Below, piece by piece: positions 39,006 to 46,104 of a DNA stretch of 64,000 nucleotides (its first letter is position 1; the number at the start of each line of letters is the position of its first letter). The notes beneath the pieces were generated by a model. It made no database searches and had not been told where the DNA came from. It saw only the letters and a program-made list of their open reading frames with translations. Origin of the DNA: Candidatus Multivoradales bacterium (GTDB lineage Bacteria; Acidobacteriota; Thermoanaerobaculia; Multivoradales; JAHEKO01); the NCBI GenBank assembly GCA_965223155.1, contig CBDCVR010000014.1:320001-384000 (forward strand). Direction: 5' to 3'. The translations under genes were made by a program, and so were the position numbers.

Positions 39006-39725
39006 ATGCGAAATCTAGGTCTGGTCGGTCTGGCTCTTCTTCTCGCTCTGTCTTCGTTCGCCCCGGCGGCCGAGGCGGCGCGGATCCCCGATTGCCTCGA
39101 CAATCCCGGCGTACCCGATCGGCTGGGTTTCACGCACCGAGTACCGATTCGCATTGGCGGCACATTCTGGTACTTCGCGGATCCGGGACTCCAGCTCTCC
39201 TCGACGCCGGACAACGTCGGCCAGCCGCAGGACATCCCCGGTCACTGCTGGTCGGTCTCGGCCCCGCTGGGCCGGTATCCACGCTTCTTCGGGCACCACT
39301 ACAACACCGGTCCGCTGGGAGCCGGGGCGCCCGGCCGGTTCTGGTCCAGCAATGCCCCGGATCACTCCCTGCTCTTTCTGGTCGACATCATCATCTCGCG
39401 CTGGACGCCCAAGCTCGCCCTCGAGCGCTTCAATGACGGCTACGTCCACTACCACGAGCTGGTGCGCGAGGGCGACGGCTGCGTCCATCCCCGACTCGTG
39501 GCCTGGTTCAAGCACACGGCCATCGAGAGCTTCTCGTTCGACGGCGGACCACCGCCGGTACTCCCGGACGGCACGTACTTCCGGCCGCGCAACGTCCCGT
39601 TCAAAGCCCGACCCGGTGTCGCCCACGGCTTCATGGTCAACTACGACGTGCCCTACAAGCCGCAGCAGCAGCGCATCGGCCGCGAAGCGTTTCCGGTCGA
39701 AGTCTGCAAGCTGAGCCGCAAGTAG
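39006..39725 (+). CDS. secreted hypothetical protein with His motifs
   Basis: Signal peptide MRNLGLVGLALLLALSSFAPAAEA; PGHCW, GHHYNTG, YVHYHEL, WFKHTA. Confidence 0.7.
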   Translation: MRNLGLVGLALLLALSSFAPAAEAARIPDCLDNPGVPDRLGFTHRVPIRIGGTFWYFADPGLQLSSTPDNVGQPQDIPGHCWSVSAPLGRYPRFFGHHYNTGPLGAGAPGRFWSSNAPDHSLLFLVDIIISRWTPKLALERFNDGYVHYHELVREGDGCVHPRLVAWFKHTAIESFSFDGGPPPVLPDGTYFRPRNVPFKARPGVAHGFMVNYDVPYKPQQQRIGREAFPVEVCKLSRK

Positions 39726-39837
39726 GCATCGTCGAATTCGGTGACAGATGAGATGAGTCGGTCGGTCTCCAGCTGGGACACTGTGCCAGTTGGAGATAAC
39801 CAAGAATCGGCATCAGAGCCGAGAAAGGAGACCGACC

Positions 39838-40851
39838 ATGGAGTATCTTGGCATCGATGTTCACTCGAAGTACAGCGAGGTGTGTGGCGTATCAGAAGAC
39901 GGTGAGGTGACGGTTCGCCGGCGGGTTCCGACGACCGAGACGGGCCTGCGAAGGTTCTTCGCCAATCGGGAACGCTCGCAGGTGACGCTCGAGAGCGGTC
40001 CGGTCACACCCTGGGTCTATCGACTGCTGTCTGAGCTCGGCCATGAGGTGATGGTGGTCAATCCACGCCGGGTACGTCTGATCGCGGAATCGACCCTGAA
40101 GACGGACGGAATCGACGCCGAGATCCTGGCTCGTTTGAGCCGGTTGGATCTGGGTTTGCTTCGACCAGTCTACCAGCGCACAGGTGAGGCCCAAGAGCTT
40201 CGGACGCGTCTTCGGGTCCGAACGAGTCTGGTGAAGACCAGGACCTCGCTGATCAACTCCGTACGCGGAACGCTGCGGGCACAGGGCTACCGAGTGCCCT
40301 CATGTCCGGCGAAGAGCTTCGTGGCTCGGTACGCGTCGATGTCGGTCGAAGCCGGCCTGTTGGGAGCGCTCGAACCTCTGGTAACGACAATCGGCGAGCT
40401 GACCGATCGGATCCACCATCTCGAAGACGACCTCATCTCCGAGTCGAGATCAAACGAGCTGGTCCGTCGGCTGCAGACGGTTCCTGGTGTGGGGCCTCTG
40501 GTGAGCCTTGCGTTCGTCGGCTGGATGGATCGTCCGGATCGGTTCGAGAAAAGCCGCGACGTCGGAGCGTGTCTGGGCTTGAGACCGTCGCTTCGCAGCT
40601 CAGGAGGGCATGAGGTCAGGGGCCGGATCACTCGCGAGGGCGACTCGGAGATGCGCAGACTCTTGGTGCAGGCAGCTCATGCGGCGTTGAACTGTCGCAA
40701 AGAGTCGTCACTCAAGAGATGGGCTGAGGGCCTGGTCGAGAGGCTGGGTAAGGGCAAGGCCGTGGTCGCGCTAGCTAGGAAGATCGCGGTGTTGCTCCAC
40801 AGGCTGTGGGTGACAGGTGAGAGCTTCCGAGCCTTTCCCAAGGCAGCGTAG
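39838..40851 (+). CDS. IS110 family recombinase/transposase
   Basis: YLGIDVH, LESG, KTDGIDA (RuvC-like DEDD), VPGVG, GLRPSLRSSGG, AVVALARK; AAAGGAG RBS. Confidence 0.95.
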   Translation: MEYLGIDVHSKYSEVCGVSEDGEVTVRRRVPTTETGLRRFFANRERSQVTLESGPVTPWVYRLLSELGHEVMVVNPRRVRLIAESTLKTDGIDAEILARLSRLDLGLLRPVYQRTGEAQELRTRLRVRTSLVKTRTSLINSVRGTLRAQGYRVPSCPAKSFVARYASMSVEAGLLGALEPLVTTIGELTDRIHHLEDDLISESRSNELVRRLQTVPGVGPLVSLAFVGWMDRPDRFEKSRDVGACLGLRPSLRSSGGHEVRGRITREGDSEMRRLLVQAAHAALNCRKESSLKRWAEGLVERLGKGKAVVALARKIAVLLHRLWVTGESFRAFPKAA

Positions 40852-40879
40852 AAGAGATAACTAGACGACCAACAAGCAA

Positions 40880-41040
40880 GGACGGATTGAGAGGTTCGAT
40901 GACTCCGAAAGTATCCTTGGTGGCCCCGACACCGTGTGACAGATGGGAGCATCGATTCCTAAACGGACGCAAAACTCACCATGCACCGGTTCAAAGAAGA
41001 ACCCTACAGAGTGCGAATAGAAGCTCGTCCCAAGCCTCGA
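40880..41040 (+). ncRNA. putative bridge RNA / seekRNA of the IS1111 element (boundaries approximate)
   Basis: Two stem-closed internal loops whose unpaired strands match the insertion target (GTATCCT, GTGACAG) and the element end (ATAGAAG). Confidence 0.7.
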
Positions 41041-41109
41041 TCCAAACCTAAGGAAAACTACAAAAAGAAGAAACGAAACTCTTGACGCCAACCGACCGAC
41101 TCATAGAAG

Positions 41110-41226
41110 GATACATATTTCGGGACTGTCCCTCTGCGGCCGGACCCTTCCCTTGAAACGAGTATCCTGTCACCGAATCCGAATTCACCGAATCCGAATT
41201 CTGTCACCGAATCCGACACCGAATCC
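41110..41226. repeat. right part of the interrupted GGTGACAG palindromic repeat plus stuttered CACCGAATCC copies
   Basis: GAGTATCCTGTCACCGAATCC at 41160-41180; CACCGAATCC at 41171, 41186, 41205 and 41217. Confidence 0.8.
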
Positions 41227-41254
41227 GGATTTAGTGAGATGATGGCCGGGCAGC

Positions 41255-43267
41255 GTGCACATCAAGCGTCGATTCAGGGGCGCCGCCGTTACGGCGGCCA
41301 TCTGGACCGCGGTGGTGACCCCGGACCCCGCGGCGGCCCAGCCGGCGGTCGTCCGTGTCACGGTCACCCAGGTCACGGCCCTTGACTGCCTCGATCCGGC
41401 GGGTCTGTCGTGCGCCGGCGCCGACTTCTACGCCAAGCTGAGCGTCGACGGCGAGACGGTCCAGACACCGCACATCGATGATGCGACCTCGATCTCGCCG
41501 AACTGGACGCTGGAGCGGTCCGTGGCCCGCAATCCGGTGCCCGTCCAGATCGAGATCTGGGAGTCCGACAGCTGGTTTCGCGACGGCGACGACCCGGTGG
41601 ACCTCAAGTCAGCCCCGGGCCGGAGCCTCAATCTCTCGGTCGATACCCAGGCCGGCAGAATCTCGGGCAACCTCACCGGCAAGACCAACACCCTCCTGAC
41701 TTCGGCCGGAACCCAATCCGGCCGGGCCCGAATCACCTTCCGCATCGACGTCGTGACCCGTCCCAGGCTGGGAGAGCTCGCGATTACCGTGGAGCGCTTG
41801 ACCACCCTCGAGACGGTGGACGACGGCGTCACCGGACGCCAAGGCCGGGCCGACTACTACGTCCGGGTAGCCATCGACGGCATCGTCACCAGCAACCGCG
41901 ACGACCCGACCACCTCCGTCTACTACGACCACGACGAGCTGGCTCCGTACTGGACCTTCAAGCGAATCGTTAATTTGAACCGTCGCTCGATTCCGTTCGC
42001 CCTCGAGCTAATGGATGCCGACAACAACGCTGACGACCGGGTCGACATCCAGCCCGGCCTAGGCCGGGTCCTGCACATGACGGTGACGCCGAGCACCTGC
42101 CGGATCCAAGGCGACGTCACCGGCCGTTGCGCCGGTCCGTTTGACGCCAGGGGGCGGATCGTGGCCTCCGGCGAACAGGACGACCGCGCACGCATCCAGG
42201 TCCGCGTCGAGCTGCGCCGGCCGCCGCCCTTCGCATTGCGCTGCCTACACTCGCCACTCTGGCCGCGTCCCGGACAAACGGTCTCGATCCGGGCCGAGGC
42301 CCTCGACAGCCAGCTCGACCCGGTGGTCGCGGACGGCATTCAAATCGGCGTCGCGGGCACCGGCAGGATCCACTCCTGCGACAACGCTGGGGCCTGCACT
42401 CTCAACGTCATGATGCCGGCGGGCGCGACACGGTTTGACTACATCTGCCAGGCGCAGCGCTTCCGCAGGACGGTCACGACCGGCCTACGCCAGGTAGCCG
42501 TCGGGGCCAGGCCCGGCGAGCGAGCCGTCCCGATCTTGAGACATCAACCCTCAGCCAAGGCCCTCGACCTCGTGTTCCTGGCCGATCTCGACACCTTCTC
42601 GACCGCGTCCGAGACCGCCTATCTCGGCGCGGTCGAATTCTTGATCCGCTCCGGTCTCTTTCGGAATCCTCCGTTGGTCCTCAACCAACAACGTCTCAAC
42701 CTGTGGATCGCCAAGGACCTGGCCGATGCCAACGGTTTCGTGCCGGGAAGCACGGTGCGCTGCAGCCAGCCGCCGTCGAACTGGACCACCGCTTACGGCT
42801 TCGCGGACTCGGGCATCGTCGTGCACCAAGAAGCGATTCGGGACTGCGCCGACTTCGCCACGGTCGGGCCTCAGGGCCAGATCTTGCGCCCGATGGTGAG
42901 CACTCCGGCCAACTCTCCCGGCGTTCTGCTACACGAGCTGGGGCACATGCCCTTCGGCCTGGCCGACGAATACTGCTGTGACGGCGGCTACTTTCAAACC
43001 GGATTCGCCCCTAACGTCTACGCCTCGGCCGACGCGACCCAGTCGAGCACGGCCTGCCGGGCCGATCCTCTTGCTGCTCTCCTGGGCGCCTGCGGCGCCT
43101 TCACCGAGAACCGCCCACCGAGCCGGCGGCGGGTGTTTCGCCTCGATCACCCTCCAGGAAGCCGGTTCGACTTCCGTGACGTCTCGAACGACCTGATGGT
43201 GGACGACGGCACCCTCCGGCCCGCCGACGTTCGACGATTTCAACACGTGTTCCGAAGCCTTCCGTGA
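41255..43267 (+). CDS. secreted protein: two repeated beta domains plus M64-like zinc metallopeptidase
   Basis: Signal-like N-terminus; repeated ADFYAK/ADYYVR...PNWT/PYWT units; LLHELGHMPFGLADEY metallopeptidase motif. Confidence 0.75.
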   Translation: MHIKRRFRGAAVTAAIWTAVVTPDPAAAQPAVVRVTVTQVTALDCLDPAGLSCAGADFYAKLSVDGETVQTPHIDDATSISPNWTLERSVARNPVPVQIEIWESDSWFRDGDDPVDLKSAPGRSLNLSVDTQAGRISGNLTGKTNTLLTSAGTQSGRARITFRIDVVTRPRLGELAITVERLTTLETVDDGVTGRQGRADYYVRVAIDGIVTSNRDDPTTSVYYDHDELAPYWTFKRIVNLNRRSIPFALELMDADNNADDRVDIQPGLGRVLHMTVTPSTCRIQGDVTGRCAGPFDARGRIVASGEQDDRARIQVRVELRRPPPFALRCLHSPLWPRPGQTVSIRAEALDSQLDPVVADGIQIGVAGTGRIHSCDNAGACTLNVMMPAGATRFDYICQAQRFRRTVTTGLRQVAVGARPGERAVPILRHQPSAKALDLVFLADLDTFSTASETAYLGAVEFLIRSGLFRNPPLVLNQQRLNLWIAKDLADANGFVPGSTVRCSQPPSNWTTAYGFADSGIVVHQEAIRDCADFATVGPQGQILRPMVSTPANSPGVLLHELGHMPFGLADEYCCDGGYFQTGFAPNVYASADATQSSTACRADPLAALLGACGAFTENRPPSRRRVFRLDHPPGSRFDFRDVSNDLMVDDGTLRPADVRRFQHVFRSLP

Positions 43268-46084: not shown

Positions 46085-46104
46085 GGTGACAGGATACTCA
46101 TTCC
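46085..46104. repeat. GGTGACAG-family repeat left arm (empty IS target)
   Basis: GGTGACAGGATACTCATTCC. Confidence 0.7.

What the first reader, a model, noticed from the sequence alone, without database searches (positions are those of the whole stretch)
39734..41120. IS1111-type element with readable bridge-RNA guides programmed against a host palindromic repeat
Seen: removing 39748-41109 restores GGTGAC-AG-GATAC, identical to empty copies at 46085 and (reverse) 41162-41174. On the other strand the target is GTATC-CT-GTCAC. In the 3' non-coding region a stem (TCGATG-A-CTCC 40896-40906 / GGAGCATCGA 40946-40955) encloses an internal loop with GTATCCT (40911-17; left target plus core) and GTGACAG (40936-42; reverse complement of core plus right target), separated by a GGTG/CACC hairpin. 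A second stem (GGACG 40965 / CGTCC 41026) encloses CTCACC and ATAGAAG (41017-23). ATAGAAG matches the element right end exactly; CTCACC matches the left end only partly. Established: IS110/IS1111 recombinases use such bispecific RNAs, and IS621 uses a CT core. The system class is known, but this orthologue has a fully inferable target, donor and guides.
Basis: partly seen in the sequence, partly recalled or inferred. Interest (0 to 1): 0.8.

Follow-up and report, generated by a model that had tools for sequence, protein, structure and literature searches.

The report
IS1111-type insertion sequence with guide RNA
This is an intact, recently active jumping gene of a known RNA-guided kind, whose own small RNA spells out both the short hairpin repeat it inserts into and its own ends; it is a clean new example, not a new mechanism.

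Summary
Window 39748-41109 (+) is a 1362-bp IS1111-group element of the IS110 family. It has a 337-aa DEDD/Ser recombinase, 14-bp subterminal inverted repeats and a 258-nt 3' non-coding region.

The genome holds 14 identical full copies plus one split copy. All 15 sit in GGTGAC-AG|GAT(A/G)C. There are 17 empty exact sites, and two of them are the empty alleles of occupied sites.

Loop 1 carries GTATCCT and GTGACAG, which match the two target strands and overlap at the core. Loop 2 carries ATAGAAG, which is the right end plus core, and CTCA, which pairs with left-end nt 2-5.

The guide reading is supported by natural covariation:
- An 81%-identical sister IS in the same genome, and five close relatives from a MAG and metagenome contigs, have different flanks and matching changes in loop 1. 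Loop 2 and the ends stay constant.
- Fifteen relatives with 36-44% identical recombinases share the architecture, and their loops track their own flanks and ends.

No RNA or circle-junction data could be obtained. The class has been known since 2024, so this is a new member of a known kind. Interest is moderate to low.

The parts
39740..39747 (+). Left half of the target (GGTGAC) plus the left copy of the AG core (39746-47)
   Evidence: the same 8 nt flank 15 of 15 copies.
39748..41109 (+). The insertion sequence, 1362 bp
   Evidence: 14 full copies listed at 100% identity (rounded; two score slightly lower, one of them 1363 bp) plus one split copy; occupied and empty allele pairs define the ends.
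39748..39752 (+). Left terminal extension ATGAG. Its nt 2-5 are the part paired by the 5' arm of loop 2.
39753..39766 (+). Left subterminal inverted repeat ATGAGTCGGTCGGT
   Evidence: 14-nt inverted repeat with 41091-41104.
39753..39840 (+). Structured 5' leader. The left repeat pairs with GACCGAC just 5' of the AUG and encloses the AAGGAG ribosome-binding site.
   Evidence: -45.5 kcal/mol, z = -5.15, 0 of 200 shuffles fold as well.
39838..40851 (+). tnp, encoding a 337-aa DEDD/Ser recombinase (stop codon included)
   Evidence: GIDV, LES, KTDGID and GLRPSLRSSG align with the conserved blocks of IS621 and ISCro4.
40896..40955 (+). Target-binding stem-loop (basal stem, internal loop, GGTG/CACC hairpin)
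   Evidence: 6 of 9 basal-stem pairs and 3 of 4 upper-stem pairs show compensatory changes among 18 elements.
40911..40917 (+). 5' target guide GTATCCT, the reverse complement of core plus right flank. It pairs with the + strand.
40936..40945 (+). 3' target guide GTGACAG (left flank plus core; pairs with the - strand), followed by ATG, which equals the first 3 nt of the element (handshake-like)
   Evidence: a 10-nt match to the left junction. describes the IS621 handshake guides.
40965..41030 (+). Donor-binding stem-loop (GGACG/CGTCC basal stem; TGCAC 40982-86 / GTGCG 41011-15 upper stem)
   Evidence: The upper stem is invariant in 18 of 18 elements, so it gives no covariation.
40975..40978 (+). 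5' donor arm CTCA, complementary to left-end nt 2-5 (TGAG)
   Evidence: the cognate 4-mer is present in 13 of 18 elements, against 34 of 224 non-cognate pairs.
41017..41023 (+). 3' donor arm ATAGAAG, equal to the last 5 nt of the right end plus the core
   Evidence: exact in 16 of 18 elements, against 0 of 194 non-cognate pairs.
41082..41087 (+). TTGACG, a likely -35 box of a junction promoter. The -10 box GAAG|AT would form only when the ends are joined.
   Evidence: TTGAC is invariant in 18 of 18 elements, 21-22 nt before the end. The promoter role is inferred.
41091..41104 (+). Right subterminal inverted repeat ACCGACCGACTCAT
41105..41109 (+). Right terminal extension AGA plus the right copy of the AG core
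41110..41114 (+). Right half of the target, GATAC
   Evidence: 14 of 15 copies have GATAC and one has GATGC.
41162..41174 (-). Empty target copy in inverted orientation, the partner of the occupied repeat
46085..46097 (+). Empty target copy. The same locus is occupied on contig C7 of the assembly.

Best explanation
Window 39748-41109 is an intact, recently active IS1111-group insertion sequence of the IS110 family. It encodes a DEDD/Ser recombinase and, in its 3' non-coding region, a two-loop guide RNA (bridge RNA / long seekRNA).

**Loop 1 reads the target GGTGAC-AG-GATAC.** Its 5' arm GUAUCCU pairs with the strand carrying AGGATAC. Its 3' arm GUGACAG pairs with the opposite strand. The two arms overlap at the AG/CT core, where strands are exchanged. 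The AUG after the 3' arm matches the first bases of the element. It could pair with the incoming donor strand after exchange, as the IS621 handshake guides do.

**Loop 2 reads the joined ends of the excised circle.** Its 3' arm AUAGAAG matches the right end plus core. Its 5' arm CUCA pairs with left-end nt 2-5.

**Cycle.** The element excises as a circle. The join probably creates a promoter from TTGACG in the right end and GAAG|AT across the joint. That promoter would drive tnp and the RNA. The element then integrates into the tip of a REP-like hairpin repeat.

**Shown:** element anatomy, copy number, site specificity, occupied and empty alleles, and covariation of guides with flanks and ends.

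**Inferred:** that the RNA is made and bound, the circle, the promoter and the handshake.
For: **Protein.** Pfam PF01548 (E = 8.5e-25) and PF02371 (E = 4.5e-21). NCBIfam NF033542 at 241 bits against a cut-off of 140. phmmer hits to the solved IS621 and ISCro4 recombinases at E about 1e-10, with GIDV, E, KTDxxD and the GL-P----SG serine block aligned.

**Copies and site.** There are 14 full copies listed at 100% identity and one split copy. All 15 of 15 have GGTGACAG on the left. GATAC is on the right in 14 and GATGC in 1. The genome has 17 exact empty sites. The C7 and C11 copies are occupied alleles of loci that are empty at window 46085 and at C14:574418. The 40 nt shown on each side are identical, and one side is identical for 400 of 400 nt.

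**Retargeting in close relatives.**
- The sister IS (81% nt identity) has flanks GGTGCC-AG...CCTTT. Its loop 1 reads AAAGGGT...GTGCCAG, while loop 2 and the ends are unchanged.
- L054 and L057: flank AG-AGG(C/T)TTC with guide GAAGCCTCT.
- L055: flanks GTTCC and AC-CCACTT with guides GTTCCAG and AAGTGGGT.
- L053: flank AC-CCGTTT with guide AAATGGGT, one U.G wobble.

**Distant relatives.** Among 18 elements, cognate loop-flank matches beat every one of 10,000 permuted assignments for each arm, with the core excluded.

**Donor loop.** The 3' arm is exact in 16 of 18, with 0 of 194 non-cognate hits. The 5' arm matches in 13 of 18 against 34 of 224 non-cognate pairs. In L035 the core is AA in the flanks and in three of the four arms.

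**Stems.** 9 of 17 consensus pairs show compensatory changes.

**Literature.** The arm order and overlap match the published IS1111 seekRNAs.
Against: There is no direct evidence that the RNA exists or that a circle forms.

The folding energy of the non-coding region is ordinary (z = -0.74).

Rfam gave only four chance-level matches (E 0.65-6.8).

The 5' donor arm is short. It fails in 5 of 18 elements, and its three core-proximal positions are mostly unpaired (mean 1.15 of 3).

For ISEc11, an 82-nt RNA with the target loop alone sufficed for transposition. The second loop may therefore not be needed.

Some single-copy relatives match their flanks poorly on one or both arms (L023, L026, L027, L032, L039, L043).

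L020's 5' guide has an A.C mismatch with its only known flank.

The recombinase tree is largely unresolved, so the number of independent covarying changes cannot be counted.
Confidence: 0.88

Rival explanations
1. Only the first stem-loop is the working guide, a short seekRNA as in ISEc11. On this view the second loop does not bind donor DNA. Its matches to the ends would serve something else, such as RNA processing, recombinase binding or regulation. The ends themselves would be recognised through the subterminal inverted repeats.
For: Siddiquee 2024, sections 10 and 14: the 82-nt ISEc11 RNA moved a mini-IS more efficiently than the 154-nt form, and the role of the long form is called unsettled. 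In this clade the 5' donor arm is only 4 nt, and its core-proximal positions are mostly unpaired. The upper stem of loop 2 is invariant and so gives no covariation.
Against: The 3' arm matches right end plus core exactly in 16 of 18 elements and follows the A/G difference in 18 of 18. It also follows the AA core of L035, with 0 of 194 non-cognate hits. The 5' arm follows rare left ends: ATGGT with ACCA, ATAAGG with CCTTA, ATGGA with TCCA. Durrant 2024 predicts donor loops in IS1111 elements (passages only, figures not seen).
Confidence: 0.2
2. Target choice is made by the protein reading the REP-like hairpin. On this view the matches in the non-coding region are coincidental or are copies of target sequence carried along by the element.
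For: The target lies in an imperfect hairpin. A target stem-loop adds specificity for the IS110 element ISPpu10 (preprint 10.64898/2026.03.19.712850, abstract and sections 6-7).
Against: Six different flank pairs in close relatives each come with matching changes in both arms, while the recombinases stay 78-87% identical. Permutation tests give 0 of 10,000. Chance co-occurrence of both 7-mers is 13 in 200,000 shuffles. A hairpin contribution may add to RNA guidance without replacing it.
Confidence: 0.03
3. The element is an inactive relic whose copies spread by duplication of host DNA rather than by transposition.
For: Some small contigs (C2, C7, C11) share one flank with chromosomal copies.
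Against: There are 15 different left flanks. The copies are listed at 100% identity with an open reading frame. Occupied and empty alleles of the same locus coexist. Insertion is precise, at one position of a dispersed repeat.
Confidence: 0.03

Closest known systems
IS1111-group elements with a seekRNA (ISEc11, ISPa11, ISKpn4, ISPst6; Siddiquee et al. 2024, PMC11187229; sections 6, 8, 9, 10, 13 and 14 read)
   Same: Recombinase of about 340 aa with the GL-P----S(t)G motif. Subterminal inverted repeats. Long non-coding region downstream of tnp. Two short matches to the top and bottom target strands, top-strand match first, overlapping at the insertion point. ISPa11 also targets a REP. Natural redirection between relatives is known (ISEc11 and ISXne4).
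   Different: None of these named elements was compared here by sequence. The nearest database proteins carry only generic names ('IS110 family transposase', 'transposase'). The host is an acidobacterium. Here the second loop also tracks the element ends across a clade, which that paper does not report in the sections read. No experiment exists for this element.
IS621 / ISCro4 bridge recombinases and bridge RNA (Durrant 2024, PMC11208160, passages; Hiraizumi 2024, PMC11208158, passages; Hiraizumi 2026, PMC13626964, abstract)
   Same: Two internal loops, each with two arms that pair with opposite strands and overlap at a CT/AG core. Bases next to one arm match the other substrate (handshake). 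DEDD plus Ser catalytic residues align.
   Different: In IS621 the RNA lies upstream of the gene. Here it lies downstream, and relative to the element's orientation the arm order is reversed. Read on the CT strand, the arm order is the same as in IS621. The subterminal repeats are long (14 bp). The 5' donor arm does not reach the core. Protein similarity is remote (E about 1e-10).
REP-targeting IS110-family elements (ISPpu9, ISPpu10; PMC12288879, passages; preprint 10.64898/2026.03.19.712850, abstract and sections 6-7)
   Same: Insertion at one position of a dispersed intergenic palindromic repeat, often in convergent pairs, around an AG/CT dinucleotide. A target stem-loop is present.
   Different: In ISPpu10 the RNA is placed between the junction promoter and the start of the coding sequence. 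Here it lies downstream of tnp. Whether the hairpin contributes to recognition here was not tested.

Membership tests
IS110 family, IS1111 group | N-terminal DEDD (RuvC-like) domain and C-terminal PF02371 domain with the GL-P----S(t)G motif | tested here: met
   (PF01548 at 87.8 bits, PF02371 at 75.5 bits). (GLRPSLRSSG). (blocks aligned to IS621 and ISCro4). (NF033542 at 241 bits against a cut-off of 140).
IS110 family, IS1111 group | Subterminal inverted repeats of 7-17 bp with short terminal extensions | tested here: met
   a 14-bp repeat, ATGAGTCGGTCGGT / ACCGACCGACTCAT, lies 5 nt from each end.
IS110 family, IS1111 group | Longer non-coding region downstream of tnp; recombinase of 330-350 aa | tested here: met
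   90 nt upstream, 258 nt downstream, 337 aa.
IS110 family, IS1111 group | Orientation-specific insertion at one sequence, with only the core dinucleotide repeated | tested here: met
   (15 of 15 copies). (empty alleles).
IS110 family, IS1111 group | Circular intermediate with a junction promoter | tested here: inconclusive
   TTGAC is invariant 21-22 nt before the end in 18 of 18 elements, and GAAG|AT would form at the joint. No junction was seen in the contigs laid.
Bridge RNA / seekRNA | Stem-enclosed internal loop with two arms complementary to opposite target strands, overlapping at the core | tested here: met
   Stems covary.
Bridge RNA / seekRNA | Arms change with the target among relatives | tested here: met
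Bridge RNA / seekRNA | Second loop complementary to the joined element ends | tested here: met
   the 3' arm is exact in 16 of 18 elements. The 5' arm matches in 13 of 18 but is short and stops before the core.
Bridge RNA / seekRNA | The RNA is transcribed, processed and bound by the recombinase, and is needed for movement | not testable with these tools
   It needs RNA-seq, pull-down and transposition assays.

The most novel reading that the evidence does not exclude
This IS1111 clade may exchange strands differently from IS621.

First, the 5' donor arm avoids the three core-proximal bases across the clade.

Second, in sister lineages whose 5' target arm reads GT (target core AC) while the donor core is AG, the left junction is AG in all 5 junctions seen. 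The right junction is AC in 3 of 4.

These are the sequences the first (CT-strand) exchange alone would give. They would fit a crossover needing only one shared base. They would also fit a Holliday junction resolved without a second strand exchange, for example by replication.
Probability: 0.2. Interest if true: 0.5.

Novelty: new member of a known kind. Interest (0 to 1): 0.3.

Why it matters
RNA-guided IS110/IS1111 recombinases are being developed as genome-writing tools. This element adds a compact 337-aa orthologue from an acidobacterium with target, donor and all four guide arms readable from sequence.

It also comes with a natural series of retargeted close relatives: six flank specificities among recombinases 78-87% identical. 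A clade-wide comparison shows that the second loop follows the element ends. That bears on an open point, namely whether IS1111-type elements use a donor-binding loop at all. It changes nothing about the known principle.

Tried and rejected
**Rfam.** A scan of 39500-41400 at E up to 10 gave four chance-level microRNA and snoRNA matches and nothing related. I do not know whether Rfam 15 holds a bridge-RNA family.

**Expression.** No RNA holder was listed among the public runs.

**Laid contigs.** Contigs of four runs were laid on 39700-41160. No joints were reported, either circle junctions or empty sites. Only loose ends with several different flanks at the element's ends appeared, as expected for a multicopy element. 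Contigs drop rare forms.

**Folding energy.** On its own it does not single out the region.

**Genome-contig scan.** The protein query gave only one close relative (L020) and one distant hit.

**Tree.** A recombinase tree meant to count independent covarying changes was mostly unresolved: 8 of 14 inner branches were open, and one row (the sister IS) was dropped by the tool.

**Rows dropped from the 26 non-own loci (L023-L048).** I analysed 15.
- L028 comes from an unpublished genome (G152) and was not read or used.
- L029, L037, L044, L045 and L047 are short or truncated contigs and were not analysed.
- L031, L040, L042, L046 and L048 showed no ATGAG-type subterminal repeat, so their ends could not be set.

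**Uncertain or odd relatives.** The left boundary of L034 is uncertain by 3 nt. L043 carries a 20-nt copy of its right flank inside its non-coding region, and its 5' target arm does not match.

It concerns a 9-bp repeat family on another piece of the same genome and has no bearing here.

**Literature.** Searches for 'IS1111' with 'bridge RNA', 'seekRNA', 'ISCro4', and 'IS1111' with 'donor-binding loop' turned up no experimental test of a donor loop in an IS1111-type element among the papers I opened. I did not read all listed papers. Supplementary files were not consulted; those of Durrant 2024 and Siddiquee 2024 may hold predicted donor loops for IS1111 elements.
Full report
**Observation.**
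- GGTGACAG ends at 39747 and GATAC starts at 41110. Removing 39748-41109 leaves GGTGACAGGATAC.
- Exact copies of that 13-mer lie at 46085-97 (+) and 41162-74 (-).
- The stem TCGATG-A-CTCC (40896-906) / GGAGCATCGA (40946-55) encloses GTATCCT (40911-17), a GGTG/CACC hairpin and GTGACAG (40936-42).
- GGACG (40965) / CGTCC (41026) encloses CTCACC (40975) and ATAGAAG (41017-23).

The minimum-free-energy fold of 40852-41109 contains both stems, but its energy is ordinary: z = -0.74, and 47 of 200 shuffles fold as well. In 200,000 shuffles of the non-coding region both target 7-mers co-occur 13 times and all three 7-mers never.

**The element.**
- The open reading frame 39838-40851 gives a 337-aa protein. 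It matches Pfam DEDD_Tnp_IS110 and Transposase_20.
- It matches NCBIfam NF033542, 'IS110 family RNA-guided transposase', at 241 bits against a cut-off of 140.
- It has remote but full-length similarity to the solved IS621 and ISCro4 recombinases. The GIDV, E, KTDxxD and GL-P----SG blocks align.
- The ends carry a 14-bp subterminal inverted repeat 5 nt from each tip.
- There are 90 nt before the gene and 258 nt after it.

These are the features that Siddiquee et al. 2024 use to set the IS1111 group apart from IS110 proper.

**Copies and target.** The window lies in a 4.0-Mb, 15-contig genome. The only related record with an organism title is an Acidobacteria MAG.
- The genome has 14 full copies listed at 100% identity. 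One further copy, on contig C7, is split by a 1369-bp Mutator-family element.
- All 15 have GGTGACAG on the left. Fourteen have GATAC on the right and one has GATGC. All 15 left flanks beyond the repeat differ.
- There are 17 exact empty sites.
- Two occupied copies on small contigs are alleles of loci that are empty on the large contigs. The split C7 copy corresponds to the window's own empty site at 46085, and the C11 copy to C14:574418. The 40 nt shown on each side are identical, and one side is identical for 400 of 400 nt.
- Insertion is therefore precise. AG is the only sequence present at both junctions, so AG/CT is the core.

The 13-mer sits at the tip of an imperfect hairpin whose stem varies between copies. 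Flank pairing averages 5.35 of 9 positions against 3.4 in random genomic controls. Five of 31 sites reach 7 or more, against 2% of controls. Copies often occur as inverted pairs, as at 39734/41174 in the window. 'Host palindromic repeat' is a fair but somewhat generous description.

**Guide reading in close relatives.** The same genome carries two copies of a sister element, 81% identical in DNA. Their flanks are GGTGCC-AG ... AG-CCTTTCC and GGTTCC-AG ... AC-CCTTTTC. In the alignment the element ends and loop 2 are identical to those of the window's element. Loop 1 instead reads AAAGGGT ... GTGCCAG where the window's element reads GTATCCT ... GTGACAG. That is the change the flanks call for.

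| Element | Recombinase identity | Flanks | Loop 1 arms |
|---|---|---|---|
| L020 (MAG) | 85% | GGTGAC-AG / GCTAC | GTAACCT (one A.C mismatch) / GTGACAG |
| L054, L057 | 82-83% | GTGCC-AG / AGG(C/T)TTC | GAAGCCTCT / GTGCCAG |
| L055 | 78% | GTTCC / AC-CCACTT | AAGTGGGT / GTTCCAG |
| L053 | 85% | GTGCC / AC-CCGTTT | AAATGGGT (one U.G wobble) / GTGCCAG |

Counting the window's element and the sister IS, that makes six flank specificities with matching arms. This is the same kind of natural redirection reported for ISEc11 and ISXne4.

**Guide reading in distant relatives.** A search of 401 genomes of the phylum found matches at E <= 1e-40 in 27, the own genome included. The best outside the own genome was 44% identical.

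Fifteen of the fetched loci, with recombinases 36-44% identical, have the same kind of subterminal repeat (ATGAGRAGGCC...) and could be analysed. The dropped rows are listed under Tried and rejected. Their 3' regions share the two-loop layout. In the consensus fold, 9 of 17 pairs show compensatory changes, including 6 of 9 in the basal stem of loop 1.

With the core left out, the longest match between each loop-1 arm and its own flank compares as follows:

| Arm | Mean match, own flank | Mean match, other elements' flanks | Permutations reaching the observed sum |
|---|---|---|---|
| 5' arm | 5.17 nt | 2.86 nt | 0 of 10,000 |
| 3' arm | 4.39 nt | 3.02 nt | 0 of 10,000 |

Related elements are not independent, and several single copies match poorly on one or both arms (L023, L026, L027, L032, L039, L043).

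**Donor loop.** The 3' arm equals the last five bases of the right end plus the core in 16 of 18 elements. It follows the A/G difference (CATAGAAG against CATGGAAG) in 18 of 18, and the AA core of L035. There are 0 of 194 non-cognate hits.

The 5' arm contains the complement of left-end nt 2-5 in 13 of 18 elements, against 34 of 224 non-cognate pairs. It follows rare ends: ATGGT with ACCA, ATAAGG with CCTTA, ATGGA with TCCA. The three positions that would pair with left-end nt 1 and the core are mostly not complementary (mean 1.15 of 3).

The recombinase tree is largely unresolved, so I cannot count independent changes.

**Comparison with the known mechanism.** In IS621 the left target guide pairs with the bottom strand and the right target guide with the top (CT) strand, and both include the core. 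Two bases next to the right guides pair with the other substrate after the first strand exchange, the 'handshake'.

Read on the CT strand, this element's loop 1 has the same order. GTATC-CT is the left-guide analogue and GTGAC-AG the right-guide analogue. The ATG that follows the latter is complementary to the CAT that precedes the core on the donor's CT strand, and it is not complementary to the target. This explains the 10-nt match of GTGACAGATG to the left junction. AT is constant across the clade, so covariation cannot test it.

Relative to the element's own orientation the order is top-strand match first, as reported for IS1111 seekRNAs.

Siddiquee et al. found that an 82-nt RNA with the target loop alone suffices for ISEc11. 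Whether loop 2 is required here remains open, and this is the main rival reading.

**Other inferred features.**
- TTGAC is invariant 21-22 nt before the right end in 18 of 18 elements. A 17-18-nt spacer would place a -10 box GAAG|AT across the joined ends. That fits the junction promoters described for this family.
- The 5' leader folds strongly (z = -5.15). It pairs the left repeat with the bases just before the start codon.

**Verdict.** The element is a new, well-resolved member of a class described in 2024. Durrant et al. already predict such RNAs in 93.0% of catalogued IS1111 elements. No expression or circle data could be had.

The most novel residue concerns the clade-wide gap at the core in the 5' donor arm and the AC/AG asymmetry of junctions in the sister lineages. 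These hint at a variant strand-exchange rule. I give that about one chance in five.

Noticed in passing
G000 C13:297859-299225 and C15:372322-373687 (loci L016, L017); L053, L055: In the sister IS and two metagenome relatives the 5' target arm reads ...GT (target core AC), while the 3' target arm and the donor arm read AG. Likely empty sites in the genome read GT(G/T)CC-AC-CCTTT (C4:9446, C14:185512). The left junction is AG in all 5 junctions seen. The right junction is AC in 3 of 4 and AG in 1. So target and donor cores differ at their second base, and the junctions carry what the first strand exchange alone would give.
   Followed up: partly
G000 C7:11414-12782 (locus L015 2498-3805, minus strand): One copy of the element is split at its position 959-969 by a 1369-bp insertion. 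The insertion encodes a 435-aa Mutator-family transposase (PF00872, E = 1.8e-65).
   Followed up: partly
window 39753-39840: The 5' leader of tnp forms a strong hairpin (-45.5 kcal/mol, z = -5.15). In it the left subterminal repeat pairs with the bases just 5' of the AUG, around the AAGGAG ribosome-binding site. This is probably translational control of the recombinase.
   Followed up: partly
window 41115-41215; also C13:301093-301240, C13:303668-303815, C15:971268: The target 13-mer is part of a larger composite repeat. Two inverted copies flank a shared spacer of about 35-45 bp (...CGAGTGTCCCTCTGCGGCCGGATTCTTCCCTTGAAAT...). In the window, short GAATTC/GAATCC-rich tandem units follow it. It looks like a REP/BIME-type or miniature-element family.
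   Followed up: no
G000 C13:299287-299326 (locus L019): A 40-bp fragment of a left end lies in inverted orientation 61 bp downstream of the sister IS copy, with its own GGTTCC-AG flank. Contigs of runs X1 and X2 show a similar solo left-end piece of about 34 nt in another context.
   Followed up: no
G000 contigs C2, C7, C11 against C13-C15: Several small contigs repeat chromosomal loci with a different insertion state or a different left flank. This suggests strain heterogeneity in the sequenced material, or recombination between element copies.
   Followed up: partly
locus L043 (G266), non-coding region positions 23-42: A 20-nt exact copy of the sequence just outside the right end of this relative lies directly after its tnp stop codon. 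Its 5' target arm does not match the flank. It may be a rearranged or nested copy.
   Followed up: no
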